Assembly (NCBI GenBank): GCA_964622505.1
Contig: CAZUQJ010000001.1
Span: 116,957-180,956, forward strand
DNA: 64,000 nucleotides
DNA from: an uncultured Candidatus Saccharibacteria bacterium
GTDB taxonomy: Bacteria > Patescibacteriota > Minisyncoccia > Phycocordibacterales > UBA9973
Reading direction: 5' to 3'
Part shown: in pieces, positions 5,401 through 63,991 of the stretch
Layout: each line of letters begins with the position of its first letter
Position numbering within the stretch: position 1 is the first letter of the stretch
Notes under the pieces: generated by a model
Database searches by the model: none
What the model was told of the DNA's origin: nothing
The model's input: only the letters and a program-made list of their open reading frames with translations
Position numbers and translations under genes: made by a program

Positions 5401-5523
5401 GCTCAAAAATACCTTAAAGACAGAAAGGGTAGAAAACTAACCAATGAAGAAATTGAGCATTATCAAAAAATCATTAAGGTATTGTTTGAAACTGATAAAT
5501 TAATGAAGGAAATAGATAAGTAG
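2401..5523 (+). CDS. Type IIG (MmeI-family) restriction-modification enzyme: an N-terminal PD-(D/E)xK nuclease fused to a gamma-class N6-adenine DNA methyltransferase and a C-terminal specificity domain. The likely true start is the Met at 2425.
   Basis: N-terminus KPDFVIS...ILYIEAKD (PD-ExK) aligns with the MmeI N-terminal layout. VLDIATGTGTFL matches MTase motif I and CVIGNPPYSG motif IV (NPPY). The protein is 1040 aa. Confidence 0.8.
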   Translation: MWYYDSINMHEYIKNIAQKFARNDVANGREMIYRTDFENLLKDIFQADGKVTQINHDSTSDNGNKPDFVISKNGVPILYIEAKDIGVDLNKIENSNQMHRYFGYGNLILTDYVEFRFYRNGERYGNPISIASIDKLNRTISELSQNFSLLSKTITDFASSYKEPIKKGSHLARIMGGKAMRIRDNVKDMLLSDNEKFSDLQKILNVVKENLVASLDNETFADMYAQTLVYGLFAARYNDKSPNDFSRSEARDLVPKTNPFLREFFNHIAGPSFPDRLRYIVDELCEVFTHANVHTLMHEYFKKENLFGEVYESPDPVIHFYEDFLKEYDIKKKMEMGVFYTPRPVVRFIVRAVDDILKNEFGLARGLADTTKIQIEKKEIDQKTGKEKKVQKEYHKVQVLDIATGTGTFLNEVIHNIYANFSGQEGRWVSYVENDLLPRLHGFELMMASYTIAHLKLGMTLYDTKAGDLKTRLGVYLTNTLDAPVDYANQGSLFGLMDSIAQESKNASRIKSEYPIMCVIGNPPYSGISMNKQYTENNDYKVEIGGKQKLQEKKNWLDDDYVKFIRFAESLIEKNGEGIVGMITAHGYIDNPTFRGMRWHLRNTFDKIYVLDLHGNSNKKETSLDGSKDENIFDIKTGVSIILGIKKQGNIKDKKLAQIYKSDFYGLRKDKFKNIENATIDNLNWTELPENSDLWVLEGKGKLEYKKGFSMTEIFPKNTTGIVTMGDSFIIDENRDVLTKRIDEFLQNDISENDLKHKYDLGKNYAKWIIDNKKKIENNHLKIVPLSYRPFDIRYTYFDKNLVWRTRGDVMYGLVKKENLGLVFARSQRNPEFNAVFICNSIIETKCGEASTQSAVAPIYLYTENGEKISNLNKEIWNKINDVVGNTTPEDILDYIYASLHSPKYRETYKEFLKIDFPRVQYPTDKKEFERLVKLGSKLRELHLMTDPECENLITTYSQSGSDVVEKVKYENGNVYINDAQYFGNVPEISWSFYIGGYQPAQKYLKDRKGRKLTNEEIEHYQKIIKVLFETDKLMKEIDK

Positions 5524-13167: not shown

Positions 13168-15393
13168 ATGAGACTTACTTGGGTAAAATATATTTTTTTA
13201 TTGACTTTTGCTTTATTATTTGTGAATAATAAAACTTTTGCTGCAACAACTATTTTTTCGGATAGTTTTAATAATGATTATGGTGAATTATCGACCCATA
13301 CCCCTACAACAGTGGGTACTAGTTGGACGCGATTGGTAAACAACGGTGTCGACTTATATGTTCAAAGCTATAACAATCACGTAACCGTTCAGTCAAACTC
13401 AAGTAACCTTGGTTCAATTTATGTAGCCAACGGTACATATCCAGACGCTGATTACGAAATTTCGGCCGACGCTTTGTTTGCAGCAGGTGATTCTAACTAT
13501 CCTCGATCATTAATATTACGCGCTCAAGATTCTAGTAATATGTATTTGCTTCGTAGTACGAATACGACAATGACAATTTATAAAAGAGTTTCTGGTACGT
13601 GGACATCACTTGGTTCAGGCGGTAGTGTTGGATTATCTGATAATACAGTCTCACCGTACTATATTGCAACACTAACATTTAGTGCTGTAGGTACAACTTT
13701 GACAGGTAAAGTAAATGGAGTCACCAAAGTAACTGTAACTGATAGTAGTATTACAAGTGCTGGTAAGGCAGGTATTGGCTTGGGGTACACAGCAGTTTCA
13801 ACTGATGATGGAGGGACAGGGGTAGGGATAGACACTGTTTTGGTTCAGACCGCTACTTCAGATTCAACAGCACCAACAATTACATCTGTTTCCTCTGATA
13901 AAACGAACGGTTCGTATACTGTTGGCGAAGTAATTGATATTGATGTTACTTTTAGTGAAGCCGTCACATCAACAGGTGATGTAACAGTAACATTAGAGAC
14001 AGGCGCAACTGATCGGACATGTACATTTACTGTATCAAACAGTAGTACGGGAACTTGTAATTATACTGTTCAATCTGGAGACACAACAAGTGATTTAACT
14101 GTAAATACAATATCGGGCACAATTGCTGATCAATCAAGTAATGCAATGACTGATTTTGCATCTACAACCAATTTAGCAGCCAATAAGGCTTTAGTGATTG
14201 ATACTACCGACCCAACAGTGCAATCACTTGCACCAGCAGATAATGAAACAAATTTCTCGCCTACATCAGTTTTTTTGATGACATTCAACCAGGCAGTTGA
14301 TGTTGAAACAGGGAATATTACGATTAAAAAAACATCTGATAATTCTACAGTTGAAACAATTAGTGTAAGTGGTGGATTGGTTACAGGCACTGGGACAACT
14401 GTTATTACCATTGACCCGTCTACAAATCTTTCAGATCTTACAGAATACTACATTTTAGTAGATGCTACCGCCTTTGATGATGCCGCAGGTAATAGCTATG
14501 CTGGTATTAGTTCAACCACGGCATGGAGTTTTACAACAGGAGATATAACAGCACCAACAATTACATCTGTTTCCTCCGATAAAACGAACGGTTCGTATAC
14601 TGTTGGCGAAGTAATTGATATCGACGTAACTTTTAGTGAAGCTGTAACTTCTACTGGTAACGTAACTGTTACGCTTGAAACTGGTACAACTGATCAAACA
14701 TGTACATTTACTGTTTCAAACAGCAGTACAGGAACCTGTAATTATACTGTTCAAGCCGGAGACACGACCAGTGATTTAACGGTCAACACTATTTCAGGCA
14801 CCATTGCTGATCAATCTAGTAATGCTATGTCTAACTTCGTACCAACTACAAACCTGGCTGCGAATAAAAATATTGTTATTGATACAACCGTACACATAGT
14901 GTCATCCACTAGCACTTCAGCAAGTGCACGAGTTCAAAATTTAATTAATATGGGGAAAATACAAGAAGCTCAACAAGTGGCAAAAGAATTTCCTAATTCA
15001 GTTCCAAAAAATTTATTAAATAATAAATTAATTTTAATACCTGTAAAACCAATAGAAAATATACAAAAAATAACCCCCAAAATTACTGAAATTAAAAAAG
15101 AAAATAATTTAGCAAGAGTAGAGCCAATTGTAGAAAATATTTTGCCAGAAGTTAACACAAATACAGAATCAAAAAAGAAAAAAATAATAAATAAAACTTT
15201 AAAAAGTTCAATGATTGACCCAGAAGTTAAAGCCTTACAAGAGTTCTTGCAAATTGACCCGCCGACAGGAAAGTTTGGAGCATTAACTTATAAAGCAGTA
15301 ATTAATTTTCAGAGAAAAAATAATTTAATACCTGATGGTATTGTAGGCCCAAAAACAAGAGCAGTAATAAATAAATTACTTTACGAAGCATAA
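13168..15393 (+). CDS. Secreted cell-surface protein with a signal peptide, two near-identical Ig-like modules flanking an SbsA/Big_5-like Ig domain, and a C-terminal peptidoglycan-binding (PG_binding_1) domain
   Basis: N-terminal hydrophobic signal; the roughly 115-aa repeat APTITSVSSDKTNGSYTVGEVIDIDVTFSEAV… occurs twice; C-terminal …LIPDGIVGPKTRAVINKLL matches the PG-binding motif. Confidence 0.65.
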   Translation: MRLTWVKYIFLLTFALLFVNNKTFAATTIFSDSFNNDYGELSTHTPTTVGTSWTRLVNNGVDLYVQSYNNHVTVQSNSSNLGSIYVANGTYPDADYEISADALFAAGDSNYPRSLILRAQDSSNMYLLRSTNTTMTIYKRVSGTWTSLGSGGSVGLSDNTVSPYYIATLTFSAVGTTLTGKVNGVTKVTVTDSSITSAGKAGIGLGYTAVSTDDGGTGVGIDTVLVQTATSDSTAPTITSVSSDKTNGSYTVGEVIDIDVTFSEAVTSTGDVTVTLETGATDRTCTFTVSNSSTGTCNYTVQSGDTTSDLTVNTISGTIADQSSNAMTDFASTTNLAANKALVIDTTDPTVQSLAPADNETNFSPTSVFLMTFNQAVDVETGNITIKKTSDNSTVETISVSGGLVTGTGTTVITIDPSTNLSDLTEYYILVDATAFDDAAGNSYAGISSTTAWSFTTGDITAPTITSVSSDKTNGSYTVGEVIDIDVTFSEAVTSTGNVTVTLETGTTDQTCTFTVSNSSTGTCNYTVQAGDTTSDLTVNTISGTIADQSSNAMSNFVPTTNLAANKNIVIDTTVHIVSSTSTSASARVQNLINMGKIQEAQQVAKEFPNSVPKNLLNNKLILIPVKPIENIQKITPKITEIKKENNLARVEPIVENILPEVNTNTESKKKKIINKTLKSSMIDPEVKALQEFLQIDPPTGKFGALTYKAVINFQRKNNLIPDGIVGPKTRAVINKLLYEA
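13870..14217 (+). repeat. Intragenic direct repeat, copy 1 (about 340 nt, roughly 90% identical to copy 2)
   Basis: gcaccaacaattacatctgtttcctc… recurs at 14551. Confidence 0.7.
14551..14889 (+). repeat. Intragenic direct repeat, copy 2
   Basis: In-frame duplication 681 nt downstream of copy 1. Confidence 0.7.
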
Positions 15394-23071: not shown

Positions 23072-25618
23072 ATGTTTAATTTTAGACCTAAAATGGAGAG
23101 TAAAGTCTCTAGTGCTTTACCCACAGAAGAAAAGCCAGATATTCAGGAAACTAAACAAAAAGAAGAAAAATCACTAACTCCTGAAATTATAAAAAAAATA
23201 TATGAAAAAGGTCGTTTATATATCATGACCACGATTATTTCCCTTGGTATGTTTCAAGTAGATAAATCAGGTTCAGAGCAAAATTTTGATTATTTTATAT
23301 CGAAGTTCAAAAATATTCCAAAAGAAAAAAGCCATGAAGTTTATGATGATTTAAATAAAATATTGTCACCAGAAGAATTTTCAATATATTGTGAAAACGA
23401 TAACGATAGTTTAATTTCAAATTCAGTACTTGATAATAAATTCCGTGAAATCTTGGTGAAATTAAGTTCAAAGTTTATTTTTAAATCAGATGATCTGTTT
23501 ATAGATTTTTCTGAAAAAAAAGAGGAGGAACAAAACCAAAAACAATTATATAAAATAGATACTGAGGATTCTTGGAAAAAAATTGATGAAATCCTAAAAG
23601 AATTTCCTTCAGGTTACAAACCAGAGATTTCTTCAATTCCATATTCTCATATTGAATATTTAAATGATCCAGTATATTTTAAGGCCCTAAAACGTCTTGC
23701 CAGCATAAAAATGACGAGAGATGTTGCATATTGTAACAACAATAACATTAAAAAAATTGCAACGGATGATGATTTATTTATCATATTAGAGAAATTTAAT
23801 AGCTTGGGCCCTGAATTTAGTGCAGGCATTATTGATCGTTTTTTTGAATCTGGAACTAAACCTGAATATTTAGATGAAGAACAATGGCAAAAAAAATTAA
23901 ATTTCCGTAATGACTTTGAACACTTCTTGCAATCTAATCCAAATGCAAAGATTTTTGAATATGGTAAAGGCTCTAAATTTGAATCAAATGGAATTATTAA
24001 TTTAATGGATGATTCATCTGGAAGATACATACAATTTTTTGAAGACAAGAATAATCAAAAAAGTATTGAATTCCTACGTAGTATTGGATATGATTTCCAA
24101 TCAATGTATTTTTTAATAAGGTCAAATTATGAAAATATGGTCAACGAACCAGAATTTTTAGATGCACTGAATGAACTATCTGTAATCAATAGGAGGGGTG
24201 ATTCCTATAGCGTTTGGTTTCATTTATTATCTAAATATGATTCTTATTACAACTTAGACACTAAAGATGGTTTTGAGGATTTGGCTCATGATTTAAAAAG
24301 GGCTAAGTACAAGCTAGGTAATTCTTCTGTGGATTTTTATAAAGTCAGAGATAAATTAGAAGAAATTACAGACAAACATACTAAAAACAGCAATGAAATA
24401 ATTAAAGAAAATGTTTTTGAGCCTTTAGTTGCAGATATGGATACATCATACCAGCATTGGGATGAATTTTTAAAAGATCCAGCATTAGAAATTATAACAA
24501 AGTTAAAATATCAGAATAATATACCTAAATATTTGGATACTTTAGATTATTTTTCCAAAATAGATTGGATGATGCGCGTTGCAAGAAATATGTATATTGC
24601 TAATACACCAATTACTCCTGAAGATTTTGAAAAAACATTCTACGAAACAGTCAGCATTAGAATGGATAAGGAATTAATAGAGAAGTCATTATTTAAAAAT
24701 AGAAATGTTGCGTTCTTTGCTCACAACGAACGATACGGTGATGATAAAAAAGATAAATTAACTAAATATAAATTACAGAACAAAGGGAAAAACTGCTTTG
24801 GTAAGGCTGAGGCAATGGATGCAATTTCAAAACAACAACCAGACAATCTGAACATATTTCGGGCAAACAATACTTCGGAGTCATTAATTAATACAAAGAA
24901 GCTTTTTTTAGAATATATTATAAATAATTCTAATCTTACTGTCGTTGTTGATGCGCATGGTAACGAAAATGCTATTTATCTTACTAATGGTCTACCAAAA
25001 AGTCAAGAATTAAAAAATTCAGTTCCTACCGAAGGATCAGATTGTGTCACTTTTGAAGAGATTGCTAATGCAATTGAGGAACGATATGATAAAAATATAA
25101 AAGACGTACCTATTTTTATTATGACTTCTTGTTATAATCAGAATTTTATACGGAATCTTTGCGAAAAAATTATCGAAATAAATTCACAGAAGAAAAAGGA
25201 CATACAACTGCCTATTATTTCTGGAGATGCGGAATATGGACAGTATGCTTATTCTACTGAAAGCGAGTTTGGTAATGATTTTTTTGATATGATTTTAAAG
25301 AATAAATCTAATTCAAGGATTAAAGATATCATTCAAATTGAAAATGGAACTCTAACAACTAATATTTCACTGTTTGTGCCATTTACTAAAGAAAGTAAGG
25401 ATATTAACAGCAAAAAAATAAAACAAAAAATCTTCTACCAAATTACACAACACGGAGGCACACCGTTAAACAAAACACTCGCATTACAATACGCAGAGGG
25501 ATTACTAAGTAATACCATAAATGATAAAACAGCATCTTACTGGGAATATACCAATAAAGACCTAGCTCATGAAATAAGGAAAACAATCGAAGATTATAAT
25601 ATTGAGCTCGTAAGCTGA
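23072..25618 (+). CDS. Large AT-rich orphan protein (848 aa) with a possible C-terminal caspase/CHAT-like protease core
   Basis: No recognisable N-terminal domain. The C-terminal region has LTVVVDAHGNENAIYLTNG, then about 60 aa later PIFIMTSCYNQ. This is the hydrophobic-strand-HG … hydrophobic-strand-C arrangement of the caspase-hemoglobinase fold. Confidence 0.5.
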   Translation: MFNFRPKMESKVSSALPTEEKPDIQETKQKEEKSLTPEIIKKIYEKGRLYIMTTIISLGMFQVDKSGSEQNFDYFISKFKNIPKEKSHEVYDDLNKILSPEEFSIYCENDNDSLISNSVLDNKFREILVKLSSKFIFKSDDLFIDFSEKKEEEQNQKQLYKIDTEDSWKKIDEILKEFPSGYKPEISSIPYSHIEYLNDPVYFKALKRLASIKMTRDVAYCNNNNIKKIATDDDLFIILEKFNSLGPEFSAGIIDRFFESGTKPEYLDEEQWQKKLNFRNDFEHFLQSNPNAKIFEYGKGSKFESNGIINLMDDSSGRYIQFFEDKNNQKSIEFLRSIGYDFQSMYFLIRSNYENMVNEPEFLDALNELSVINRRGDSYSVWFHLLSKYDSYYNLDTKDGFEDLAHDLKRAKYKLGNSSVDFYKVRDKLEEITDKHTKNSNEIIKENVFEPLVADMDTSYQHWDEFLKDPALEIITKLKYQNNIPKYLDTLDYFSKIDWMMRVARNMYIANTPITPEDFEKTFYETVSIRMDKELIEKSLFKNRNVAFFAHNERYGDDKKDKLTKYKLQNKGKNCFGKAEAMDAISKQQPDNLNIFRANNTSESLINTKKLFLEYIINNSNLTVVVDAHGNENAIYLTNGLPKSQELKNSVPTEGSDCVTFEEIANAIEERYDKNIKDVPIFIMTSCYNQNFIRNLCEKIIEINSQKKKDIQLPIISGDAEYGQYAYSTESEFGNDFFDMILKNKSNSRIKDIIQIENGTLTTNISLFVPFTKESKDINSKKIKQKIFYQITQHGGTPLNKTLALQYAEGLLSNTINDKTASYWEYTNKDLAHEIRKTIEDYNIELVS

Positions 25619-43759: not shown

Positions 43760-45364
43760 TTAAGAGAATTTTTCTTTTCTCTTTAGAAATCTTTCCAAGG
43801 TAGTTTTTTCAAATATATCAAACCAAGGTTGTTTCTCTGCATGTTCTAGTACAAATTTTGGTAGTTTTTTCCCAATATTTGTAATGTACAAAAATGACGT
43901 CATGTCTTTATCCATAATCTTTTCCCCGCTTTGCGCTATAGACAAAAGGAATCTTGAGTAACCCTCTGCAGTAATACCTTTTTTGTTTCCTGCAAGTTTT
44001 ATTATGCTCAAAATTATACGGGAATTTCCATCTAACCTGAAGCTCTCTTGGTTAAGGGTTAAGGACCTACCTGTTTTATAATCTGTAGCAATCCTAGTGT
44101 AACTATTGATGTCTTTTAAGATGAGGTAATTTGAGGAGTCTGTCAATAATTTAGCAAAATCACTTGAAATAGTATTTTGATTTGCAAAAGCAAGAGCTTT
44201 TTTGTAATATTCAGATTTGCCGGCGGCTGAAAAAACTTTTTCCAGACCTATTTCGTCAAAAAATTGATGCAACTTGTTAGCGAATACCATTCTTTGTGTC
44301 TGAGCTTCATCTAAAAACAATAGTAAGCTTGGGTTTACAAAAAATATTTTTGCAAAGATATCACATTCTGATTTTGCTAAGAGCTTATTTACTGCAGTAA
44401 ACAATTTAACCGGCAGCTCCTCTTCAAGAATACTTTTGTTAATTGTTCTGTTGTAACTACCCAATAACTTATCAAGTGCAGATATTTTTGTTTTACTAAC
44501 AGGGTCTAATTCTAACCTACGACTTAAATAGATTGTAGGAAAGCTTTTACTTAAATCAGGAAGTATGGCTTTTACATAGGATATATTCGTAAATGAGATG
44601 TTGCTTAAATCAGTTTTGGAAAAAAGGTTCTGAAAATTTATCTCCAGTTCCTTTATCCATTTAGGATTGTTTTCAACCATAGACTCAAATTTTTTGATAT
44701 CCTCAAGACTAAACGTGTTTTTTAGTTCACCTAACATAGAACTTACAATCAAAGTGGTAAAAATTTTATCTTCCCTTAAAACTAATTTTTGGGAATCCTT
44801 TTTATCCTCGTCGGATCTTACTGACATAAACTTTTCTAACAGTTTTTTGTCTCCGGATTCGTAGAGTATCTTGGTAATTTTTATCCAACTTTGAATACCA
44901 TTTACTTCATCTTGCAAGGCTTTGAATTTAGAATCAGGCGTCTCCATTACCGCCTTAAAACCTTCAGGGTAATTCCATAGACTTTTTATCTTATTTTCAG
45001 TCCTGGAAATGTCTAAAATTTGTTGCAGTTTTGATGGCGGTGTAATTCCACTTAAAAATGTTTTAAGTTCCGGTAACCCAGAATGAGCACGCATTATTTC
45101 TTTGCAGGCCTTTTCATTTTTAATAGAAGTAAAATCAATGTTCTTTTCCAAGCAACATTCAAGTGTCATTTTTACCAAATAGAAAACTCTTTCTTTTGGG
45201 AAGGTAACTTTCGTTTGCATTTTCAGTGCCCTTTCTGAGGTAATTTTTTGAAACAGTTTGTTTGCATGTGCTGCATGTTTCAAATATAAATTATTTGAGC
45301 TAGGTTCATCTTGACCAAGAGTGGCAAGAGAAAAAGGGTTTGTTTCGTCAATAAATGTTCCCAT
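43760..45364 (-). CDS. Hypothetical protein (534 aa), AT-rich, predicted all-alpha, no recognisable domain
   Basis: Long intact ORF, second gene of a 2-gene operon. Confidence 0.55.
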   Translation of the reverse strand: MGTFIDETNPFSLATLGQDEPSSNNLYLKHAAHANKLFQKITSERALKMQTKVTFPKERVFYLVKMTLECCLEKNIDFTSIKNEKACKEIMRAHSGLPELKTFLSGITPPSKLQQILDISRTENKIKSLWNYPEGFKAVMETPDSKFKALQDEVNGIQSWIKITKILYESGDKKLLEKFMSVRSDEDKKDSQKLVLREDKIFTTLIVSSMLGELKNTFSLEDIKKFESMVENNPKWIKELEINFQNLFSKTDLSNISFTNISYVKAILPDLSKSFPTIYLSRRLELDPVSKTKISALDKLLGSYNRTINKSILEEELPVKLFTAVNKLLAKSECDIFAKIFFVNPSLLLFLDEAQTQRMVFANKLHQFFDEIGLEKVFSAAGKSEYYKKALAFANQNTISSDFAKLLTDSSNYLILKDINSYTRIATDYKTGRSLTLNQESFRLDGNSRIILSIIKLAGNKKGITAEGYSRFLLSIAQSGEKIMDKDMTSFLYITNIGKKLPKFVLEHAEKQPWFDIFEKTTLERFLKRKEKFS

Positions 45365-55258: not shown

Positions 55259-56269
55259 ATGATGTTCCTTAAATTTATTAGAATTTTATTTAAAACCCTG
55301 TTTATTACAAACAGGGTTTTATTTGCATTACTTTTATATTTTGCTACTATGGTCTTTATGATAGATTCAATAATTAATACAAAAAAAGTAGAGGATGCCG
55401 ATGTGGTTATACTCTCTGCAAGTTACGAGAAAACTGCTTCTAGTCGTAAAGGTACTGGTACTGGACCAAAAGCTATTATGAAGATGCTCGAAGGCAAGCT
55501 TGAGCTTTTCGACCGCTCGTACAAGAAAAATGTTGCTGAGTATGTAAAGATTATGCACAAAGATGCAGGTAATATTAGCCCTCTTACGCCAAAGAAAGCA
55601 CTGGATAAAATTATTGCCGAATCGACTAAAATTTTAGATAAAAATAAATTTGTTTTCTTGCTTGGTGGCGAGCACTCAGTCTCGCTCGGTCTTCTGACTG
55701 CCCTCTCGAAAAAAGTGAATCCAAAAGATGTTACAGTACTCCAGATCGATGCCCACTGCGATCTACGCAACGATGACTCTGACTATAGTGATGACCCATC
55801 CAACTTGGCTCACTCTTGCGTCCTCCGCCGAGTCAACGAGCTTGGCTACCCGCTTGTGCAAGTTGGTATCCGCACCTATTTCAAAGGTGAATATGAATAT
55901 TTCAGCAATCCTAAAAACAACATTACAGTCTTCGAATGGGGCCAAAATGGTAGGGACTTAGCCCCTACCTGGAAGCCACCGGCTATTGCGGACATAATTA
56001 AAGCGATCAAAACAAAATATGTATACATCACGATCGATGTTGACGGTTTCGATCCGGCTCATATGCCAGGCACTGGTACAGCAGTCCAAGGTGGCCTTGA
56101 ATGGTGGTATGGTGTAGAACTATTGGAAAAAGTTATCAAATCAAAAGAGCTTATAGGTGCCGACATCGTAGAAGTCGCCCCAATGCGCGACTCAATCCTC
56201 ACCGAATACGGCGCCGCCCAACTCCTCTACGGTATGGTTGCCCACAAATTTAGAAACAGATTGAAATAA
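55259..56269 (+). CDS. Arginase-family ureohydrolase, most likely agmatinase. The true start is probably the internal Met near 55352.
   Basis: GGEHS, DAHCDLRND and DVDGFDP manganese-ligand motifs. Its polyamine-gene neighbours favour speB. Confidence 0.75.
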   Translation: MMFLKFIRILFKTLFITNRVLFALLLYFATMVFMIDSIINTKKVEDADVVILSASYEKTASSRKGTGTGPKAIMKMLEGKLELFDRSYKKNVAEYVKIMHKDAGNISPLTPKKALDKIIAESTKILDKNKFVFLLGGEHSVSLGLLTALSKKVNPKDVTVLQIDAHCDLRNDDSDYSDDPSNLAHSCVLRRVNELGYPLVQVGIRTYFKGEYEYFSNPKNNITVFEWGQNGRDLAPTWKPPAIADIIKAIKTKYVYITIDVDGFDPAHMPGTGTAVQGGLEWWYGVELLEKVIKSKELIGADIVEVAPMRDSILTEYGAAQLLYGMVAHKFRNRLK

Positions 56270-56277
56270 ATAAGTAG

Positions 56278-56310
56278 TAAAAAGCCCTGATTAATCTCAG
56301 GGCTTTTTAA
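56278..56310. terminator. Bidirectional intrinsic terminator between convergent genes
   Basis: agccctga-ttaatc-tcagggct hairpin flanked by A and T runs. Confidence 0.7.
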
Positions 56311-56312
56311 AT

Positions 56313-57140
56313 TTAGATTATTTTACCAAGAAGGAATGCTTCGGAATCCTTTTTGCTGCAATCATGAGCAAACACTATTAGGCAATCCTCTGGTGCAAAG
56401 ATACTCTTGTCTCCGTCTACTCCGATCAGAGTATTTTTATAAATAGGCTCAAAATCATAAAATTTCCTTGCAAGAGTAAATTTATCTGTCTCTGACTTAT
56501 GCAGATAATCCATTTTTACATATTCGCGTATATTTTTACGACGAAATGAAATTGAACGATAATTTATATGACCTCTTGATTTAAGAAATACACAGATTGA
56601 TTTCCTCGCAATTTCAACCGACATGTGGTCGTTATGTTGTCCACACTCTATACAAATGCCGATTTTCCCCTTCGATAGCATGTATCCATCCGAAGCGCCC
56701 GGTTCGAGTGCGTCGAAACCATACACAATCCTCTCAAATACACCTGGGAAATTTTCAACAATACTTTGAGCATTGTCTTCACAAATAATAAATGGTTTGC
56801 TCGGGTTGAGAGTAGAATGAATATCCAGTAGTGCATCTCCTTCGTCAAAAATAGCTTTGATTTCCTGAGCTCTTTTGTATTCATATGTTTCCTTGATCTC
56901 ATTTGAATACAATGCTGTGTCAGAGAATAGTCGATTCAAGTTGTACTCGATAAATCTTTTGTTTTCTTGAATAGCTTTGACATTACCTAAAAGAAAGATA
57001 ACTGTACCTGATTGAATAGTAAGATGCGGTATCAATTGCTCGAAAGCATTAATACCACAAATTTCGTTGCCATGATTGCCTGCCATTACAATACTTGTTG
57101 GACCAGGTCTTTTTCCGATTAAAATGATTTTTTCTTTCAT
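56313..57140 (-). CDS. Succinylglutamate desuccinylase / aspartoacylase (AstE/AspA) family zinc hydrolase
   Basis: VMAGNHGNEICG and DIHSTLNP motifs; 275 aa. Confidence 0.6.
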   Translation of the reverse strand: MKEKIILIGKRPGPTSIVMAGNHGNEICGINAFEQLIPHLTIQSGTVIFLLGNVKAIQENKRFIEYNLNRLFSDTALYSNEIKETYEYKRAQEIKAIFDEGDALLDIHSTLNPSKPFIICEDNAQSIVENFPGVFERIVYGFDALEPGASDGYMLSKGKIGICIECGQHNDHMSVEIARKSICVFLKSRGHINYRSISFRRKNIREYVKMDYLHKSETDKFTLARKFYDFEPIYKNTLIGVDGDKSIFAPEDCLIVFAHDCSKKDSEAFLLGKII

Positions 57141-58118: not shown

Positions 58119-58212
58119 TTTTTATGTTATTTTAAATACATAATAACACATTTATATGTATCCTGTCAAACAACAAAAAAAATCCCCCACTCGAGGGCTT
58201 TTTTTGTTTCTT

Positions 58213-58962
58213 TTATTTAGTATTTTTTTGGTACTGTCTTTCTCTTAGGAATATATAGATCAACAGCATGAGGATGATTACGAAGAGTATCCAGATAATT
58301 GAAATATTTGAAATACTCATACCTGCAGATGCTACTTGGCTGTTTGCTTCTACCTCTTCGGTTGCAGTTTTCCCATCTAGAGTTGTCTTGCTACCATTTG
58401 ATCCTGTTTCTAACTTTGAACCAGCTGTGACAGTTGGTCCAGTTAGTATTTTGGATCCAACCAGATTCCTACCACCTGTATAGCTACCACTTGTTGCAGT
58501 ATAGTTATTGATCGTGTAAGTACCAGCTGTGGAATCATCTGAGATAGACTTCCCTTCGCCGATACTATCTACATTCGTAAAAGTAATAGTTGCATCTCCT
58601 GTCGCAATACCTTTTACTGTCATACTGAAAAGCACTGTGTCTTTATTTGTACCTGTTGGTATACCAATCAGGAAGTATGGCTTTGCACAAGTTGGAGTAG
58701 ATTGTGCCATCATTCCATCGGCAACGGTAATCTTTTCACAGGCGAGGTTTTTAAAATTAATCGTACCTTCTACTGCATAAACTTTGTTTTCAGAAGCACT
58801 AACAGAAGTATTTACCACAAAACTTTCATTAACATTTTTAGTCAATCCTGTTGGTGATACATATACTTGTGGCACAGTTGCAGCCAACACAGATGATGCA
58901 AATCCGATAAATACTAAAACTGCAAACACTTGGAATACTTTTTTTGTTATATTGTTTTTCAT
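58213..58962 (-). CDS. Membrane-anchored surface protein with a putative cohesin-like beta-sandwich module
   Basis: Signal peptide; a roughly 130-aa beta-rich module (…VYAVEGTINFKNLACEKITV…LFSMTVKGIATGDATITFTNV…); a Thr/Gly/Ser linker; C-terminal TM segment and basic tail. Confidence 0.4.
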   Translation of the reverse strand: MKNNITKKVFQVFAVLVFIGFASSVLAATVPQVYVSPTGLTKNVNESFVVNTSVSASENKVYAVEGTINFKNLACEKITVADGMMAQSTPTCAKPYFLIGIPTGTNKDTVLFSMTVKGIATGDATITFTNVDSIGEGKSISDDSTAGTYTINNYTATSGSYTGGRNLVGSKILTGPTVTAGSKLETGSNGSKTTLDGKTATEEVEANSQVASAGMSISNISIIWILFVIILMLLIYIFLRERQYQKNTK

Positions 58963-58972
58963 ATATTTTTAA

Positions 58973-61552
58973 TTATCTTTTAACTTCACCATAGCCCCAA
59001 TTCGACATTAATAAAGCGAAATCGTATTTATTTACTAATCCATCCACAGTCAAGTCGGCCTTTTCATTCGTTACTTTCAATCCCCAAGGCACCATCATCA
59101 AGGCAAAGTCGTATTTGTTTACTTTCCCATCACAGTTGATGTCACCAAGTATAGTACATTTTGGAGTTGGATCTCCTCCTCCTCCACCACCCCCGCCGCC
59201 TCCACCGGATGATTCTTGCTTTGAGATTGTAATGATGTTACTTACTGCACTCATGTTGCCAAATTTATCTATTTGCACCACACCAAATTTAAATGGAATG
59301 AAAGCTTCTCCTTCGGAAACGAGCGGGATTGTCGTAGTGAAAGTTCCTTCCAATCTACAAGGTGTATCTTGAGTAAAATTACTTCCTATTTTATTTAGAA
59401 TACTATCTGGTTCTGTGCCACCTAATATTTCATATGTGAAATTAAGGTGATCTGATTCTATATCACAAGTTCCAGAAACAGCTAATGTGGAACTACCGGT
59501 GTAAGGTCCCGATGTAGGACTTGTAATTATAGGTGCATCTGGAGCTATAGAGTCAATGACAAAAACAAAAGTTTTGTCTCCAAAAATAATCTCATTACCA
59601 GCTTTGTCTTTACTGATGATCATTACTCGATAACTACTATCTTTAAGATTAAGTTCAGATAAATCAAAGTGTATAGGCTCGTAAATATCAAATTTTTTAG
59701 AGTATCCTATTGTTCGGTAGTCAGTTATATTACTAGTATCTTGATGCATATCCCAAAAGATAATTTCTGATTCAAGAAGATTATCATCAATCGCATGACT
59801 AACAATAACGATATTTCCATCACTAGCTTTTTCATACGTCATGAACTCAAAGTTAACATCTGCTGTGGCTCCATTATGGAAGTAAGTATATTCTAGTTTT
59901 GGTGCTTGAGTGTCGATAATTACAGTAATATCAGGAGATTGGGAATAATTTTCATCAATATTTGCCTCAGCATAAATTTGATACACCCCATCAGGTAATG
60001 AATTAGTAGCATTCTCCACAGTCCAGTTTCCAAACTCATCTGAAGTTGTTGTGCCTATTAATGTTGAAGTTATTCCACAAGGTAATCCGGGTGTAGTAGT
60101 AATGCATGGAACCATCATTGGCACCACAAACACTTGAACTTCAGTATTGGGATAAGTTGTTCCAGAAAAAGAAGGAGTATTATCTTTTGTGATAAAATCA
60201 GTGTCTGAAATTCCTGTATCTTGTGACATTTCTGTAATAGATACTAATGGTTTAATAGAAACATAAATTTCTTTAGTTAAACTGATGCCTTTTTCATAAT
60301 CTCCACATTGCATAGCGATCATGAGAGTATCTGTATATGTGGGCGTTGTTGTCTCCCATAAGTATAGACCAGCAATAACTTTTTCAGACCCAGAAGTTAC
60401 TTTTTGTCCGGTAGTTAATTCAACACCATCCGTATTATGTACAAAATTACCATAAAAATTACAGAATTTTAAATTACTTTCCCAGGTTACATCCATAATA
60501 GATTTGTAATCAACAGGGCTTGGCATGGTTGAACCATTGATTTTAAAATTCATATAGTACTCATCTGTACTTTGAATTGTAAGCTTGAAATCTAGAGTAG
60601 GATTTACACACATGTCGTTTATTACTTCACAAGCAACAAACACATACTCTCCCGGAGTAAGAGCGCCTGTTGTTGTATTAAATGGAGCCTCTATCTGCCA
60701 TTTTCCATCTTCATCAGATGTAGTAGATCCGTAAATAGCTGTAAAAGTACTCACACCGTCTTTGATTACTTCATGATCAAACTTTTCATATATTTGCACT
60801 TTAGTATTTGGAGTAAAGGTACCGTAGAAACCTGGAGTAGTATCATTTGTTGATTGTGCGCCTGTAATTTGGTCTAGAGCACTAAAATTAGTTAATAGAG
60901 ATATATATTTTGGTTGAGAGCTTGGAAATACCCGAAAAACACTTGGAGTAAAAGCGGTAAAATCTTCGGTTTCGTCAGTACTCTTCCACGTTACTTTTAA
61001 ATAGTAATGTCCTGGAAGTACAAAATTTTCTGGAGAAATATTTGGATAAACTTGTATGATATTAATTTGTCCATTAGAAGAAGTAGGATCATTTAGACAT
61101 GACAGAGTACCATCCTCATTTAAGGATTCTGTTGTAGCTTCTTGTACTACAGAAATACACGCAGTACCGGTCTTTGTGGAGTTGATTGTTACCTGAGGGT
61201 TAAAGTTACTACCTAGAGTAAATGTTTCGCCTCCAGTAGGATATCTAATATCTATTGTCGGTGGTACAACGATTACTGGTGTAGCTGAAATCTGAATTTC
61301 ATTTGAAATTTCTATCTGAGGTTCGATTTCTATTTCTGTAACTATAGGTTCTTCTAGTGTAATTTCATTAGTAGAAAGTTCTACTTCCGGTTGAATTTCT
61401 TCTGGAACTAGCTCAACCTCTAATTGTGTCTCAGTTTGTATTTGAGTTTCTGTTTCGAGATTTAGAGTCACTTCCTCAGCCCATACGTTTATGGCCGGAG
61501 CAAACATGGTTGTCACTAGCATCACTATCAGTACTAGGTTAATTTTTTTCAT
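58973..61552 (-). CDS. Large secreted protein (859 aa) with an acidic N-terminal repeat region, a beta-rich body, a G13 linker and a C-terminal dockerin (two Ca-binding repeat segments)
   Basis: Signal peptide; C-terminal GGGGGGGGGGGGG, then GDINCDGKVNKYDFALMM and DLTVDGLVNKYDFALLMSNWG dockerin repeats. Confidence 0.7.
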   Translation of the reverse strand: MKKINLVLIVMLVTTMFAPAINVWAEEVTLNLETETQIQTETQLEVELVPEEIQPEVELSTNEITLEEPIVTEIEIEPQIEISNEIQISATPVIVVPPTIDIRYPTGGETFTLGSNFNPQVTINSTKTGTACISVVQEATTESLNEDGTLSCLNDPTSSNGQINIIQVYPNISPENFVLPGHYYLKVTWKSTDETEDFTAFTPSVFRVFPSSQPKYISLLTNFSALDQITGAQSTNDTTPGFYGTFTPNTKVQIYEKFDHEVIKDGVSTFTAIYGSTTSDEDGKWQIEAPFNTTTGALTPGEYVFVACEVINDMCVNPTLDFKLTIQSTDEYYMNFKINGSTMPSPVDYKSIMDVTWESNLKFCNFYGNFVHNTDGVELTTGQKVTSGSEKVIAGLYLWETTTPTYTDTLMIAMQCGDYEKGISLTKEIYVSIKPLVSITEMSQDTGISDTDFITKDNTPSFSGTTYPNTEVQVFVVPMMVPCITTTPGLPCGITSTLIGTTTSDEFGNWTVENATNSLPDGVYQIYAEANIDENYSQSPDITVIIDTQAPKLEYTYFHNGATADVNFEFMTYEKASDGNIVIVSHAIDDNLLESEIIFWDMHQDTSNITDYRTIGYSKKFDIYEPIHFDLSELNLKDSSYRVMIISKDKAGNEIIFGDKTFVFVIDSIAPDAPIITSPTSGPYTGSSTLAVSGTCDIESDHLNFTYEILGGTEPDSILNKIGSNFTQDTPCRLEGTFTTTIPLVSEGEAFIPFKFGVVQIDKFGNMSAVSNIITISKQESSGGGGGGGGGGGDPTPKCTILGDINCDGKVNKYDFALMMVPWGLKVTNEKADLTVDGLVNKYDFALLMSNWGYGEVKR

Positions 61553-61572: not shown

Positions 61573-61602
61573 AAAAAAGCCCTATATGAGCTTCATAGGG
61601 CT
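61573..61602 (-). terminator. Intrinsic terminator of the deoxyhypusine-synthase-like gene
   Basis: agccctat-(9 nt)-atagggct hairpin with a U-run on the minus strand. Confidence 0.6.
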
Positions 61603-61631
61603 ATCTTAGCATATTATTGACATATTGTCAA
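61603..61631 (-). promoter_or_regulatory. Candidate sigma70 promoter for the dockerin gene (TTGACA, 17 nt, TAAGAT, minus strand). The -35 element is part of the palindrome TTGACAtattGTCAA.
   Basis: Read directly from the sequence on the minus strand. Confidence 0.4.
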
Positions 61632-61658: not shown

Positions 61659-62678
61659 CTAGTTAGTATATTTAGCTATCAATTTATTGGCTTCTTCGGG
61701 ATTTGCTTTACATTCAAGAAGTGCGCTCATGATCAGTGGGGCTACAATGGTTGCGTCGGATTCGATGACAAACATTGGGGTGTCTTGAGTTAGCTTGTCC
61801 CATGTAATCTTCTCATTTGGTGTTGCTCCAGAGTATGAACCGTAGGAAGTGGTAGAGTCCGAGATCTGGCAGAAGTATGCCCAAGGTTTGGCAGGTAGTT
61901 CCATATCGTATTTGAGTGATGGCACCACACAGATTGGGAAATCTCCGGCAATACCTCCACCAATTTGGAAAAATCCAATCCCCTCTCCTTCGGAAAGTTT
62001 ACTGTATTGATCGTAGAGTTCGCCCATGTACTCTACACCGCTTTTTGCGATAGAGGCACTGGCATCGCCGTGCTTTACATGTGAAGCAAAGATATTACCA
62101 AAAGTGGAATCTTCGTATCCAGGTACAACTATTGGAATATTGTTTTGTGCTGCTGCAAGAAGCCAGCATTCGTCTGCGTTACCCTCATGTTTATCTTTCT
62201 CGATCATTTGGATCAAGTCATAGAAATATTCATGCCAAAAGCGACGTGTACCATTCTTGGTCGCCTCTTCCCACATTGGAACAATATGCTTCTCTACTGC
62301 ACGAAATGCTTCGTCTTCTGGAATACTTGTGTCTGTGACACGGCGCATACGATCCTCTAGGATCTTTGTGTCATCTTCTTTTGTAAAATATCGGTAATCT
62401 GGGAAATCTTTATAAGAATTGTGTGCTACAAGTCGAAAGAGCGACTCTTCCAAGTTGGCACCGGTCACTGACATGCCGTGGATGAGGCCTGCGCGAATAG
62501 CCGGTGTAAGTGTAATACCAAGCTGGGCGCTAGACATAGCTCCAGCTACTGCCCAGAACATCTTGCCACCCTTTTCTGTATGGCGCCAATAAGCAATCAA
62601 GGCATCACGAGTAGCTCGAGCGTTGAAGTTCTTGTAATTCTTAAGTATAAATTCTAATGTAGGTAAATTGTTTTGCAT
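61659..62678 (-). CDS. Deoxyhypusine synthase-like protein (probable homospermidine synthase)
   Basis: DHS-family segments …GGKMFWAVAGAMSSAQLG… and VTGANLEES (compare TAGGVEED); 339 aa. Confidence 0.7.
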   Translation of the reverse strand: MQNNLPTLEFILKNYKNFNARATRDALIAYWRHTEKGGKMFWAVAGAMSSAQLGITLTPAIRAGLIHGMSVTGANLEESLFRLVAHNSYKDFPDYRYFTKEDDTKILEDRMRRVTDTSIPEDEAFRAVEKHIVPMWEEATKNGTRRFWHEYFYDLIQMIEKDKHEGNADECWLLAAAQNNIPIVVPGYEDSTFGNIFASHVKHGDASASIAKSGVEYMGELYDQYSKLSEGEGIGFFQIGGGIAGDFPICVVPSLKYDMELPAKPWAYFCQISDSTTSYGSYSGATPNEKITWDKLTQDTPMFVIESDATIVAPLIMSALLECKANPEEANKLIAKYTN

Positions 62679-62701
62679 AATATTATTTTAACATTTATTA
62701 A

Positions 62702-63991
62702 TTACCAGCCAAAGTTCTTGCCCACTTCATCGGCGGTTTCTCTTTTCCGAGCCACCACAATATGTCCATTTTCCGCAACTATCTTTAATGGCGAGGACAG
62801 CATGCAGTGATGTGCAGCGAGCGGATCCTGGTACGCCCCTGTGTCCATAACTGCGATATACATTGGGTCAGTACTTCGATTCATGTCGTAGTCTGGCAAT
62901 GTGACGTATCCGTTTACTCCAGTATAGATATCGTCAGAGTCGCAAGACGATCCTGCTAGCCACACATCTTCGAGTTTGTCGTCATGCTTACTGTTTAGAG
63001 GTACCACAGACCATTTCTGGCCGATAGCCCAAGTATCGAGCAAGTCGTTCATAAAGCTACCGTCTATCACATACCATTTTTTTGCATCGGCTTTCTTGTT
63101 TGCAATCTTTTTTGTATCGATAATTTTAAATATAGTTATTTGTGCTGGTGCCACAATGTAGCGACCCCATTCGCAGATCAAGTTTGGGTGTGGCATGCCA
63201 CGCTTCTCACTCTCTTTCTTTACCAAGGTGAAAATTCTCTCCATCAACTTCTCTATTGGGTAGCTCTTGTTGCGAGTGTACGGGATTGGCATACCTCCCC
63301 CAATGTCGATAGTGTCGAGAGATGCATTTTTTTCTTTTACTTTGAAATAGACATCAAGTGCATACTTGATAGGCCCCAAAACATCGGACAATTTCTCAAT
63401 CTGTGAGCCTATATGGTAGTGCAAGATTTTCAAATTTTTAAAACTACCCATATCGATAATTTCTTTGGCCGAGAATCCAAAACGGTCAATCGGTTTGTTC
63501 CAATACGATGCTGCTTTTACTGGCATGTCTAGACGTATTCCCACATCATATTTGGAGTGTTGGAGGAATTTGAGTTCATTTGGCCCTTCGATCAATGGAA
63601 ATATCTTAACACCTTTGTGTTGCAAGTCGTCGATCAGGTTGATGTATTTGTCAGTCTTTGGACCAGAACACAGGATCCGGATATTTGGGTTAAAGGATTC
63701 CTGCTCGAGCATTCGTTTTACAAGCCAGAGGTCGTTGAAAGATGAAGTTTCCAAATGTGCACCCTCGCCTACAAGCGCCATAACAACTTCCTTGTTTTGA
63801 TTGACCTTCATTGGGTAGTGATACAGGAACTTGCCCTTGTAGCCCACCTTTTTAGATAGGTGCGTTGCAAGATCAAGGAAGTCCTCCAATCGTTCCTCAA
63901 TAATAAATGGGAAAAGAATTTCAAGCGAAGTACCCATCTTGTCAGCAAGATAGCGAATATTATAAATATTGTTCCCCTCCTTTACTACCAA
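62702..63991 (-). CDS. speA: PLP-dependent Orn/DAP/Arg decarboxylase-family enzyme, most likely biosynthetic arginine decarboxylase (SpeA-like). The N-terminus may lie beyond the window edge.
   Basis: HYPMKVN (YPxKxN PLP-lysine motif) and ICEWGRYIVAP (EPGR-like). The ORF runs to the window end. Confidence 0.65.
   Translation of the reverse strand: MVVKEGNNIYNIRYLADKMGTSLEILFPFIIEERLEDFLDLATHLSKKVGYKGKFLYHYPMKVNQNKEVVMALVGEGAHLETSSFNDLWLVKRMLEQESFNPNIRILCSGPKTDKYINLIDDLQHKGVKIFPLIEGPNELKFLQHSKYDVGIRLDMPVKAASYWNKPIDRFGFSAKEIIDMGSFKNLKILHYHIGSQIEKLSDVLGPIKYALDVYFKVKEKNASLDTIDIGGGMPIPYTRNKSYPIEKLMERIFTLVKKESEKRGMPHPNLICEWGRYIVAPAQITIFKIIDTKKIANKKADAKKWYVIDGSFMNDLLDTWAIGQKWSVVPLNSKHDDKLEDVWLAGSSCDSDDIYTGVNGYVTLPDYDMNRSTDPMYIAVMDTGAYQDPLAAHHCMLSSPLKIVAENGHIVVARKRETADEVGKNFGW

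What the first reader, a model, noticed from the sequence alone, without database searches (positions are those of the whole stretch)
58213..61552. Adjacent putative cohesin-bearing membrane anchor and dockerin-bearing giant surface protein: a minimal cohesin-dockerin pair
The 859-aa secreted protein ends with a 13-Gly linker and two canonical dockerin Ca-binding repeats (DINCDGKVNKYDFALM, DLTVDGLVNKYDFALL). The gene immediately downstream encodes a signal peptide, a 130-aa beta-sandwich-like module, a Ser/Thr/Gly linker and a C-terminal TM anchor. That layout fits a cohesin-type scaffold. Together they suggest a cell-surface display or attachment system rather than a cellulosome.
Basis: partly seen in the sequence, partly recalled or inferred. 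Interest (0 to 1): 0.65.

Follow-up and report, generated by a model that had tools for sequence, protein, structure and literature searches.

The report
Membrane cohesin anchor with dockerin cargo
Two adjacent genes in a likely Saccharibacteria (ultrasmall epibiotic bacterium) genome encode a secreted protein ending in a dockerin plug and a membrane-anchored protein carrying a hidden cohesin socket, which together look like a simple snap-on system for mounting proteins on the cell surface.

The parts
58973..61552 (-). Cargo gene: 859-aa secreted protein (signal peptide, acidic low-complexity region, Ig-like domains, Gly11 linker, dockerin)
   Evidence: ORF. Pfam Big_13 at 1.1e-14 (2 stretches) plus Dockerin_1 above the gathering score. 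N-terminal hydrophobic segment at residues 3-25.
61478..61552 (-). Predicted signal peptide of the cargo (residues 1-25, MKKINLVLIVMLVTTMFAPAINVWA)
   Evidence: Hydrophobicity scan; coordinates verified. The cleavage site is inferred.
59909..60235 (-). Best Big_13 Ig-like domain of the cargo (residues 440-548)
   Evidence: Pfam; coordinates.
59174..59206 (-). Poly-Gly linker, 11 Gly (residues 783-793)
   Evidence: A poly-Gly or Ser run precedes the dockerin at most related loci.
58976..59173 (-). Dockerin module (residues 794-859): two Ca-loop plus helix repeats at 59093..59143 and 59006..59056. Position-10 lysines are K813 (59114..59116) and K842 (59027..59029).
   Evidence: Pfam Dockerin_1, 25.7 bits against 22.9. 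The family dockerin profile hits solved dockerins: 2jnk/2ozn at 6e-6, 1daq at 2.6e-5. Coordinates.
58213..58962 (-). Anchor gene: 249-aa type-I membrane protein with one cohesin module
   Evidence: ORF; AF2 model; family of 264 clusters.
58882..58962 (-). Predicted signal peptide of the anchor (residues 1-27)
   Evidence: Hydrophobicity. 135 of 147 family members have an N-terminal hydrophobic segment.
58498..58881 (-). Cohesin module (residues 28-155). Includes E65 (58768..58770), D132 (58567..58569) and conserved Cys75/Cys92 (58738..58740, 58687..58689).
58306..58497 (-). Ser/Thr/Gly-rich disordered linker (residues 156-219), a presumed wall-spanning spacer
   Evidence: pLDDT below 50 over residues 157-219. 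Length and sequence vary across the family. The spacer role is inferred.
58216..58305 (-). C-terminal TM helix (residues 220-239) and basic cytoplasmic tail RERQYQKNTK (240-249)
   Evidence: Hydrophobicity up to 3.15; helix 222-248 in the model. 139 of 147 family members have a C-terminal TM.
58184..58197 (-). Terminator-like hairpin plus T-run, 16 nt after the anchor gene's stop; probable end of the two-gene unit
   Evidence: consensus scan only.
61578..61631 (-). Upstream intergenic signals: promoter-like site (61631-61603, TTGACA-17-TAAGAT) followed by a hairpin plus T-run (61602-61578)
   Evidence: Promoter-like sites are not enriched over shuffles, so this is weak evidence. The role of the hairpin is unresolved.

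Best explanation
This is a bicistronic, non-cellulosomal cohesin-dockerin tethering cassette. Both products are exported by the Sec pathway (inferred from their signal peptides). The 249-aa protein stays in the cytoplasmic membrane through its C-terminal TM helix, with its basic tail inside. It holds a single divergent cohesin module outside the cell on a ~65-residue flexible Ser/Thr/Gly spacer. The 859-aa cargo is released from the membrane when its signal peptide is cleaved. It is then captured non-covalently and Ca2+-dependently, through its C-terminal dockerin on an 11-Gly hinge, by the cohesin's conserved beta-sheet face. A salt bridge between cohesin E65 and dockerin K813 and/or K842 (position 10 of each repeat) is predicted to contribute to recognition. 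Because the two dockerin repeats are near-identical at the contact positions, either could engage (a dual binding mode, inferred). The result is a 1:1 surface-displayed protein. In this window the cargo is an Ig-like (Big_13) protein, most likely an adhesin or spacer. In related genomes the same cassette carries subtilisin-like proteases or small putative glycan-binding modules. Shown here: the domain identities, the architecture, the conserved gene pairing and the covariation. Inferred: export, topology, Ca dependence, actual binding and the biological role.
Against: The window protein itself gives no Pfam Cohesin hit at E<=1, and the cohesin profiles find no PDB sequence match. The covariation p-value is not corrected for shared ancestry, and the NJ tree used to gauge independence rests on ~128 columns. 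The assignment of strands to the canonical 8-3-6-5 face is by strand order only, because model coordinates could not be inspected. L016 shows no dockerin in the 380 nt available upstream. Only 64 kb of this genome was surveyed for other dockerins or cohesins. The cargo's function is unknown: the AF2 model has mean pLDDT 45.7. The Saccharibacteria assignment rests on the record titles of related MAGs. The monoderm envelope is general knowledge and was not shown here.
Confidence: 0.8

Rival explanations
1. The genes are adjacent but their products are not partners. The dockerin binds host or own glycans, or another receptor (as speculated for the Southlakia dockerin protein), and the cohesin-like protein binds something else.
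For: Wang et al. 2023 (PMC10633639) speculate that the dockerin-domain protein SEML1_0315 targets host glycans, and its downstream gene is a convergent hydrolase rather than a cohesin. No binding data exist here. L016 lacks a visible upstream dockerin.
Against: Strict adjacency at 22/23 loci despite complete cargo turnover. The reciprocal charge swap is confined to one cohesin column and one dockerin position. Both modules are closest to a structurally characterised cognate pair system, C. perfringens.
Confidence: 0.08
2. The 130-aa module is a structural stalk, pilin-like or isopeptide (CLIPPER-like) beta-sandwich, and the protein is simply a small membrane-anchored surface antigen.
Against: All higher-ranking structural hits are cohesins. 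Pfam Cohesin is the only recurrent family among members. A stalk role explains neither the obligatory dockerin neighbour nor the covariation.
Confidence: 0.04
3. It is a minimal cellulosome: a scaffold that assembles polysaccharide-degrading enzymes.
For: Cohesin and dockerin are the signature cellulosome modules. Some cargo at other loci carry CHB_HEX_C_1/Fn3_assoc modules, which are associated with glycoside hydrolases.
Against: There is one cohesin per protein in essentially all 150 listed members. No CAZyme catalytic domain or CBM was found in any cargo tested; the cargo are Ig-like proteins and S8 proteases. Only one dockerin lies in the 64-kb window.
Confidence: 0.02
4. The pair does bind, but in a periplasm-like compartment or as a transient assembly or secretion chaperone rather than for stable outward display.
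For: The envelope architecture of this organism was not determined here. The anchor is in the cytoplasmic membrane, not the wall. L015's 'cargo' is only a 98-aa dockerin protein.
Against: Relatives are labelled Saccharibacteria, which are generally regarded as having a Gram-positive-like envelope without an outer membrane (general knowledge). The 65-residue or longer flexible spacer, and the extra domains inserted between cohesin and TM in some members, suit projection through a wall.
Confidence: 0.06

Closest known systems
Clostridium perfringens non-cellulosomal cohesin-dockerin toxin complexes (NagJ/NanJ cohesins with the NagH mu-toxin dockerin; PDB 2ozn, 2jnk, 2vo8, 2w1n)
   Different: There, both modules sit on secreted glycoside hydrolases that bind one another. 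Here the cohesin is the sole extracellular domain of a small TM-anchored protein, and the partner genes form an obligatory pair.
Single-cohesin cell-surface anchoring proteins of cellulosome producers (C. thermocellum OlpA/OlpC, PDB 3ul4, 4dh2; R. flavefaciens ScaE, 2zf9)
   Same: One cohesin per anchor protein tethers a dockerin-bearing protein directly to the cell surface. They are structural neighbours.
   Different: Those anchors use SLH domains or sortase/LPXTG (general knowledge). This family uses a C-terminal TM helix: 139/147 members have one and 1/147 has an LPXTG-like motif. Those serve many dockerin enzymes, whereas here there is one adjacent cargo gene.
Archaeoglobus fulgidus non-cellulosomal cohesin (PDB 2xdh) and the non-cellulosomal cohesin/dockerin modules surveyed by Peer et al. 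2009
   Different: The family here is mostly below Pfam detection, is TM-anchored and is operon-paired with its cargo. I found no description of it, but the Peer review itself could not be read.
Dockerin-domain protein SEML1_0315 of the Saccharibacterium Southlakia epibionticum (Wang et al. 2023, PMC10633639)
   Same: A large (2784-nt gene) secreted Ig-like-domain protein with a dockerin, from the same candidate phylum. It was scored essential by Tn-seq.
   Different: No cohesin partner is reported, and the downstream gene is a convergent alpha/beta hydrolase.

Membership tests
Dockerin (Pfam PF00404, Dockerin_1) | Profile HMM score above the curated gathering threshold | tested here: met
   25.7 bits against 22.9, residues 802-849. 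10/10 cargo proteins from other loci also pass.
Dockerin (Pfam PF00404, Dockerin_1) | Two tandem ~22-residue repeats, each an EF-hand-like 12-residue Ca loop with Asp/Asn at positions 1, 3, 5, 9 and 12 | tested here: met
   DINCDGKVNKYD and DLTVDGLVNKYD (Thr at position 3 of repeat 2). They align position for position with solved dockerins 2jnk, 1daq, 4fl4 and 2mte.
Dockerin (Pfam PF00404, Dockerin_1) | A helix following each Ca loop (F-hand fold) | tested here: inconclusive
   Helices are predicted at 813-823 and 842-851, but pLDDT there is 31-46.
Dockerin (Pfam PF00404, Dockerin_1) | Ca2+-dependent folding and cohesin binding | not testable with these tools
   Requires biochemistry.
Cohesin (Pfam PF00963) | Profile HMM match to the window protein | tested here: not met
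   No PF00963 hit at E<=1 for the window protein or its 14 closest homologs.
Cohesin (Pfam PF00963) | Sequence-level link of the protein's family to PF00963 | tested here: met
   9 of 62 diverse family members hit PF00963 (best E 2.2e-5). It is the only recurrent family. All 62 are related to the window module by profile search.
Cohesin (Pfam PF00963) | Nine-stranded jelly-roll beta-sandwich fold | tested here: met
Cohesin (Pfam PF00963) | Binds a cognate dockerin through the 8-3-6-5 sheet | tested here: inconclusive
   Indirect support only: conservation concentrated on beta3/5/6/8, and mutual-best charge-swap covariation between residue 65 and dockerin position 10. No complex model and no binding assay.
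Cellulosome / scaffoldin system | Scaffoldin with multiple cohesins | tested here: not met
   Single module in the window protein. 149 of the 150 listed family representatives have one matched stretch.
Cellulosome / scaffoldin system | Dockerin-borne carbohydrate-active enzymes and a CBM | tested here: not met
   The cargo are Big_13 or other Ig-like proteins, Peptidase_S8, or CHB_HEX_C_1/Fn3_assoc modules. No GH/PL/CE catalytic domain or CBM was found. The full genome was not surveyed.
Classical anchoring scaffoldins (SLH- or sortase-anchored) | SLH repeats or an LPXTG sorting signal | tested here: not met
   No SLH hit. A C-terminal TM helix is used instead. An LPXTG-like motif occurs in 1/147 members.

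The most novel reading that the evidence does not exclude
This is the founding example of a widespread 'plug-and-socket' surface-display cassette of Saccharibacteria and related ultrasmall bacteria. It has gone largely unannotated because the cohesin escapes Pfam. These epibionts would use it to mount interchangeable, fast-evolving host-interaction proteins (adhesins, proteases for scavenging peptides) on a TM-anchored cohesin. Partner specificity would have been re-coded at least once by inverting a single salt bridge (E65-K10 to K/R65-E10), giving orthogonal pairs. It could also supply the missing receptor logic for the essential dockerin protein reported in cultured Southlakia.
Probability: 0.3. 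Interest if true: 0.7.

Novelty: new variant of a known kind. Interest (0 to 1): 0.55.

Why it matters
Saccharibacteria and other CPR bacteria live attached to host cells and depend on them, yet how they build their interaction surface is largely unknown. In the one genetically tractable species, a dockerin protein is essential, but no cohesin partner has been reported (PMC10633639). A cohesin family that standard domain searches miss, tied gene by gene to its dockerin cargo, gives a concrete and testable assembly mechanism for surface adhesins and proteases in these organisms. It also offers a natural set of small, apparently orthogonal cohesin-dockerin pairs (E/K, K/E and E/I types) with a predicted single-residue specificity switch, which could be useful for protein-assembly engineering. 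It also shows that dockerin hits in CPR genomes need not imply polysaccharide degradation.

Tried and rejected
2. The AF2 model of the full 859-aa cargo had mean pLDDT 45.7 from 5 sequences. It was judged unusable, so no fold search was run and the cargo's function stays unresolved.
3. Sequence searches of the cohesin against the PDB, with a single sequence, a 15-sequence profile and a 62-sequence profile, gave only spurious TM or chance hits.
4. The RIFIN/STEVOR Pfam hits to the 249-aa protein cover only the TM and tail region (residues 191-249) and lie below their cut-offs. I rejected them as compositional.
5. The word-indexed search with the 66-aa dockerin returned a single hit, so the number of different proteins carrying this dockerin subtype could not be estimated.
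The metagenome scan with the diverse alignment failed for lack of a conserved stretch, and the narrower alignment gave only 6 loci.
7. A search of the Southlakia supplementary tables for a cohesin-like protein found no mention of cohesin or dockerin terms. The two 'diphtheria toxin fold' entries are DUF11 and WxL-type proteins.
8. Peer et al. 2009 is not held.
9. The downstream 122-aa ORF was tested as a possible third component and is not conserved in L001.
10. Rfam found no RNA families in the window.
Full report
OBSERVATION. Two ORFs lie on the minus strand at 58973..61552 (859 aa) and 58213..58962 (249 aa), separated by 10 nt. The 859-aa protein begins with a hydrophobic signal-like segment (residues 3-25), followed by an acidic Glu/Thr/Ile-rich region. 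Pfam Big_13 Ig-like domains come next (E 1.1e-14, two stretches). The protein ends with SS-G11-DPTPKCTILG and the motifs DINCDGKVNKYDFALMM and DLTVDGLVNKYDFALLM. The Gly run is 11 residues, not the 13 reported. Pfam Dockerin_1 scores 25.7 bits against a gathering cut-off of 22.9. The 249-aa protein has a signal-like N-terminus (1-27), a conserved module (28-155), a variable Ser/Thr/Gly linker (156-219), a strongly hydrophobic helix (220-239) and a basic tail. The described features are therefore present.

An exhaustive profile search of 1.84 billion representatives found 264 related clusters, 208 of them at E<=1e-10. When 62 diverse modules from that set were scanned, Pfam Cohesin was the only recurrent family: 9/62, best E 2.2e-5, with the next family at 2/62. 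The window protein thus belongs to a divergent cohesin subfamily, most of whose members lie below Pfam's reach.

INTERNAL CHECKS ON THE FOLD. Invariant residues concentrate on the strands that by order correspond to beta3, 5, 6 and 8, the dockerin-binding sheet of canonical cohesins. There are 16 invariant positions of 38 there against 4 of 42 on the other strands (Mann-Whitney p 7e-4). The strand equivalence is inferred from order only, because I could not inspect coordinates. Across 161 members, Cys at position 62 (beta3) and Cys at position 104 (beta6) are all-or-none: 111 have both, 50 have neither and none is discordant (p 7e-43). Cys75 and Cys92 occur together in 156/161. A coupled beta3-beta6 pair is what adjacent strands in an 8-3-6-5 sheet would give, and disulfides fit an extracytoplasmic domain.

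IS THE DOCKERIN CANONICAL? A profile of seven family dockerins matches about 25 solved dockerins. The best match is the non-cellulosomal C. perfringens NagH dockerin (2jnk/2ozn, E 6e-6, ungapped), followed by C. thermocellum CelS (1daq, 2.6e-5). Asp/Asn at loop positions 1, 3, 5, 9 and 12 align in both repeats. The two repeats are 12/17 identical and share K-Y at positions 10-11. From established dockerin knowledge this symmetry is compatible with a dual binding mode, which is an inference here. Helices after each loop are predicted, but only at low confidence.

ARE THE TWO PROTEINS PARTNERS? Two lines of comparative evidence stand in for it.

The first is linkage. I assembled 22 related loci plus the window from species-representative genomes, metagenomes and contig look-ups. 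In 22 of the 23, a dockerin-ending ORF lies directly upstream of the cohesin-anchor gene, with gaps of -31 to +39 nt. That is 16 of 17 distinct loci. The exception is L016, which has only 380 nt of upstream sequence. The close relatives share the whole neighbourhood, so they add little on their own. However, L007 and L015-L022 have different neighbours and unrelated cargo. All ten cargo proteins scanned pass the Dockerin_1 threshold. Their passenger domains are Peptidase_S8 with prodomain (L006, L011, L017), Big_13 (the window clade), Bact_surface_Ig-like/HYR (L013) and CHB_HEX_C_1 plus Fn3_assoc (L018, L020, L021), or almost nothing (L014, and the 98-aa protein of L015). The pairing therefore survives complete cargo replacement.

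The second is covariation. Cohesin residue 65 (the E in VYAVEGT, on beta3) and dockerin loop position 10 change together. E pairs with K/K in nine distinct loci and with I/I in two. K pairs with E/E in three loci, R with E/E in one, and K with E/D in one. Among 129 cohesin columns, column 65 ranks first for charge complementarity to position 10: 14/16, no clashes, both polarities. Column 132 ranks second. Reciprocally, among 21 dockerin positions, position 10 is the only one with two-polarity complementarity to residue 65, and this holds in both repeats. Fisher's exact p is 2.3e-4 without phylogenetic correction. On an NJ tree of 161 modules the basic state requires at least 14 changes. The smallest clade holding the five sampled basic-65 members is half non-basic and includes an E65/I10 pair. 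That tree is noisy, so the number of independent events is uncertain. Positions 10-11 are the classical cohesin-contacting residues of dockerins (established knowledge, for example the C. thermocellum type I complex 1ohz). A salt bridge between E65 and K813/K842 is thus a specific, testable prediction.

ARCHITECTURE AND MECHANISM. Family-wide, 135/147 members have an N-terminal hydrophobic segment and 139/147 have a C-terminal TM helix; most exceptions are fragments. Only one has an LPXTG-like motif. Median length is 246 aa, and 149 of the 150 listed members have a single cohesin match. A few members insert extra domains between the cohesin and the TM helix. The anchor is therefore a type-I membrane protein presenting one cohesin on a flexible spacer. 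It is not a scaffoldin. Terminator-like hairpins at 61602-61578 and 58197-58184 bracket the two genes, and the next ORF downstream is not conserved. The most likely mechanism runs as follows: both proteins are Sec-exported, the anchor stays in the membrane, and the cargo docks by a Ca-dependent cohesin-dockerin interaction and is displayed 1:1. Export, topology, Ca dependence and binding are all inferred.

ORGANISM AND CONTEXT. The three relatives found in species-representative genomes are all titled 'uncultured Candidatus Saccharibacteria bacterium'. Close relatives share synteny with the window: arginine decarboxylase, a deoxyhypusine-synthase-like gene, the cassette, an arginase-family gene and EamA. 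The window itself is unnamed. Saccharibacteria are generally considered to have a Gram-positive-like envelope (general knowledge), which would place the cohesin outside the cell. In the cultured Saccharibacterium Southlakia epibionticum, a dockerin-domain, Ig-like-rich protein (SEML1_0315) is essential by Tn-seq. That paper discusses no cohesin partner, and the adjacent gene there is not a cohesin (PMC10633639).

COMPARISON AND NOVELTY. Non-cellulosomal cohesin-dockerin pairs are known from C. perfringens toxin complexes and from A. fulgidus, and have been surveyed in ANME archaea (PMC9012536). Single-cohesin anchors such as OlpA, OlpC and ScaE are also known. What differs here is a TM-helix anchor in place of SLH or sortase, a cohesin subfamily that is largely invisible to Pfam, an obligatory bicistronic cargo-anchor arrangement with swappable cargo that includes proteases, occurrence in CPR-type epibionts, and an apparent salt-bridge inversion that defines specificity classes. 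I found no description of this in the searchable literature, though that library is incomplete. I rate it a new variant of a known kind. Confidence is 0.8 that the two proteins are a cognate tethering pair. It is much lower, about 0.35, that the window's cargo specifically mediates host attachment.

Noticed in passing
window 13168..15393 (+): A 741-aa protein with Big_5 Ig-like and C-terminal PG_binding_1 domains. This is a second predicted surface protein in the same genome, using a different anchoring principle (peptidoglycan binding).
   Followed up: no
window 2401..5523 (+): A 1040-aa Type ISP restriction-modification enzyme (Type_ISP_C 2.6e-78, N6_Mtase, HSDR_N).
   Followed up: no
window 23072..25618 (+) and 43760..45364 (-): Large ORFs of 848 and 534 aa with no Pfam hit at E<=1e-3.
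   Followed up: no
window 55259..57140 and 61659..63991: Arginine/polyamine genes flank the cassette: arginine/ornithine decarboxylase, a deoxyhypusine-synthase-like gene, an arginase/agmatinase-family gene and an AstE/AspA-like gene. The arrangement is syntenic in L001, L003 and L004. A deoxyhypusine-synthase homolog in a bacterium suggests homospermidine or related polyamine synthesis.
   Followed up: partly
window 61578..61631 (-): A strong hairpin plus T-run (61602-61578) lies between a promoter-like site (TTGACA-17-TAAGAT) and the start codon of the cargo gene. It may be the terminator of the upstream gene or a leader attenuator.
   Followed up: no
window 59108..59150 (-); L001, L003, L004: Dockerins of the window's clade carry two Cys (xC...DINCDG), one inside the first Ca loop. 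These are absent from L006, L007 and L011-L022. This may be a clade-specific disulfide clasp.
   Followed up: no
L015 2516..2812: In one distant locus the dockerin partner is only 98 aa: a hydrophobic segment plus a dockerin with no cargo domain. Its function is unclear; it could be a cap, a competitor or a degenerate cargo.
   Followed up: partly
L006, L011/L012, L017: In three independent lineages the dockerin cargo is a subtilisin-like protease with a fervidolysin-type prodomain. This suggests cohesin-tethered cell-surface proteases in these amino-acid-auxotrophic bacteria.
   Followed up: partly
L017 5454..6659: An IS605 OrfB/TnpB-like (Cas12f-like TNB) gene lies immediately downstream of the cohesin-anchor gene in this locus.
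   Followed up: no
L007 1622..5978: The dockerin cargo here is a very long, highly repetitive Thr/Ser/Ile-rich protein interrupted by an assembly gap (run of N), with a PKD-like segment before the Gly8 linker. Its true length is unknown.
   Followed up: no
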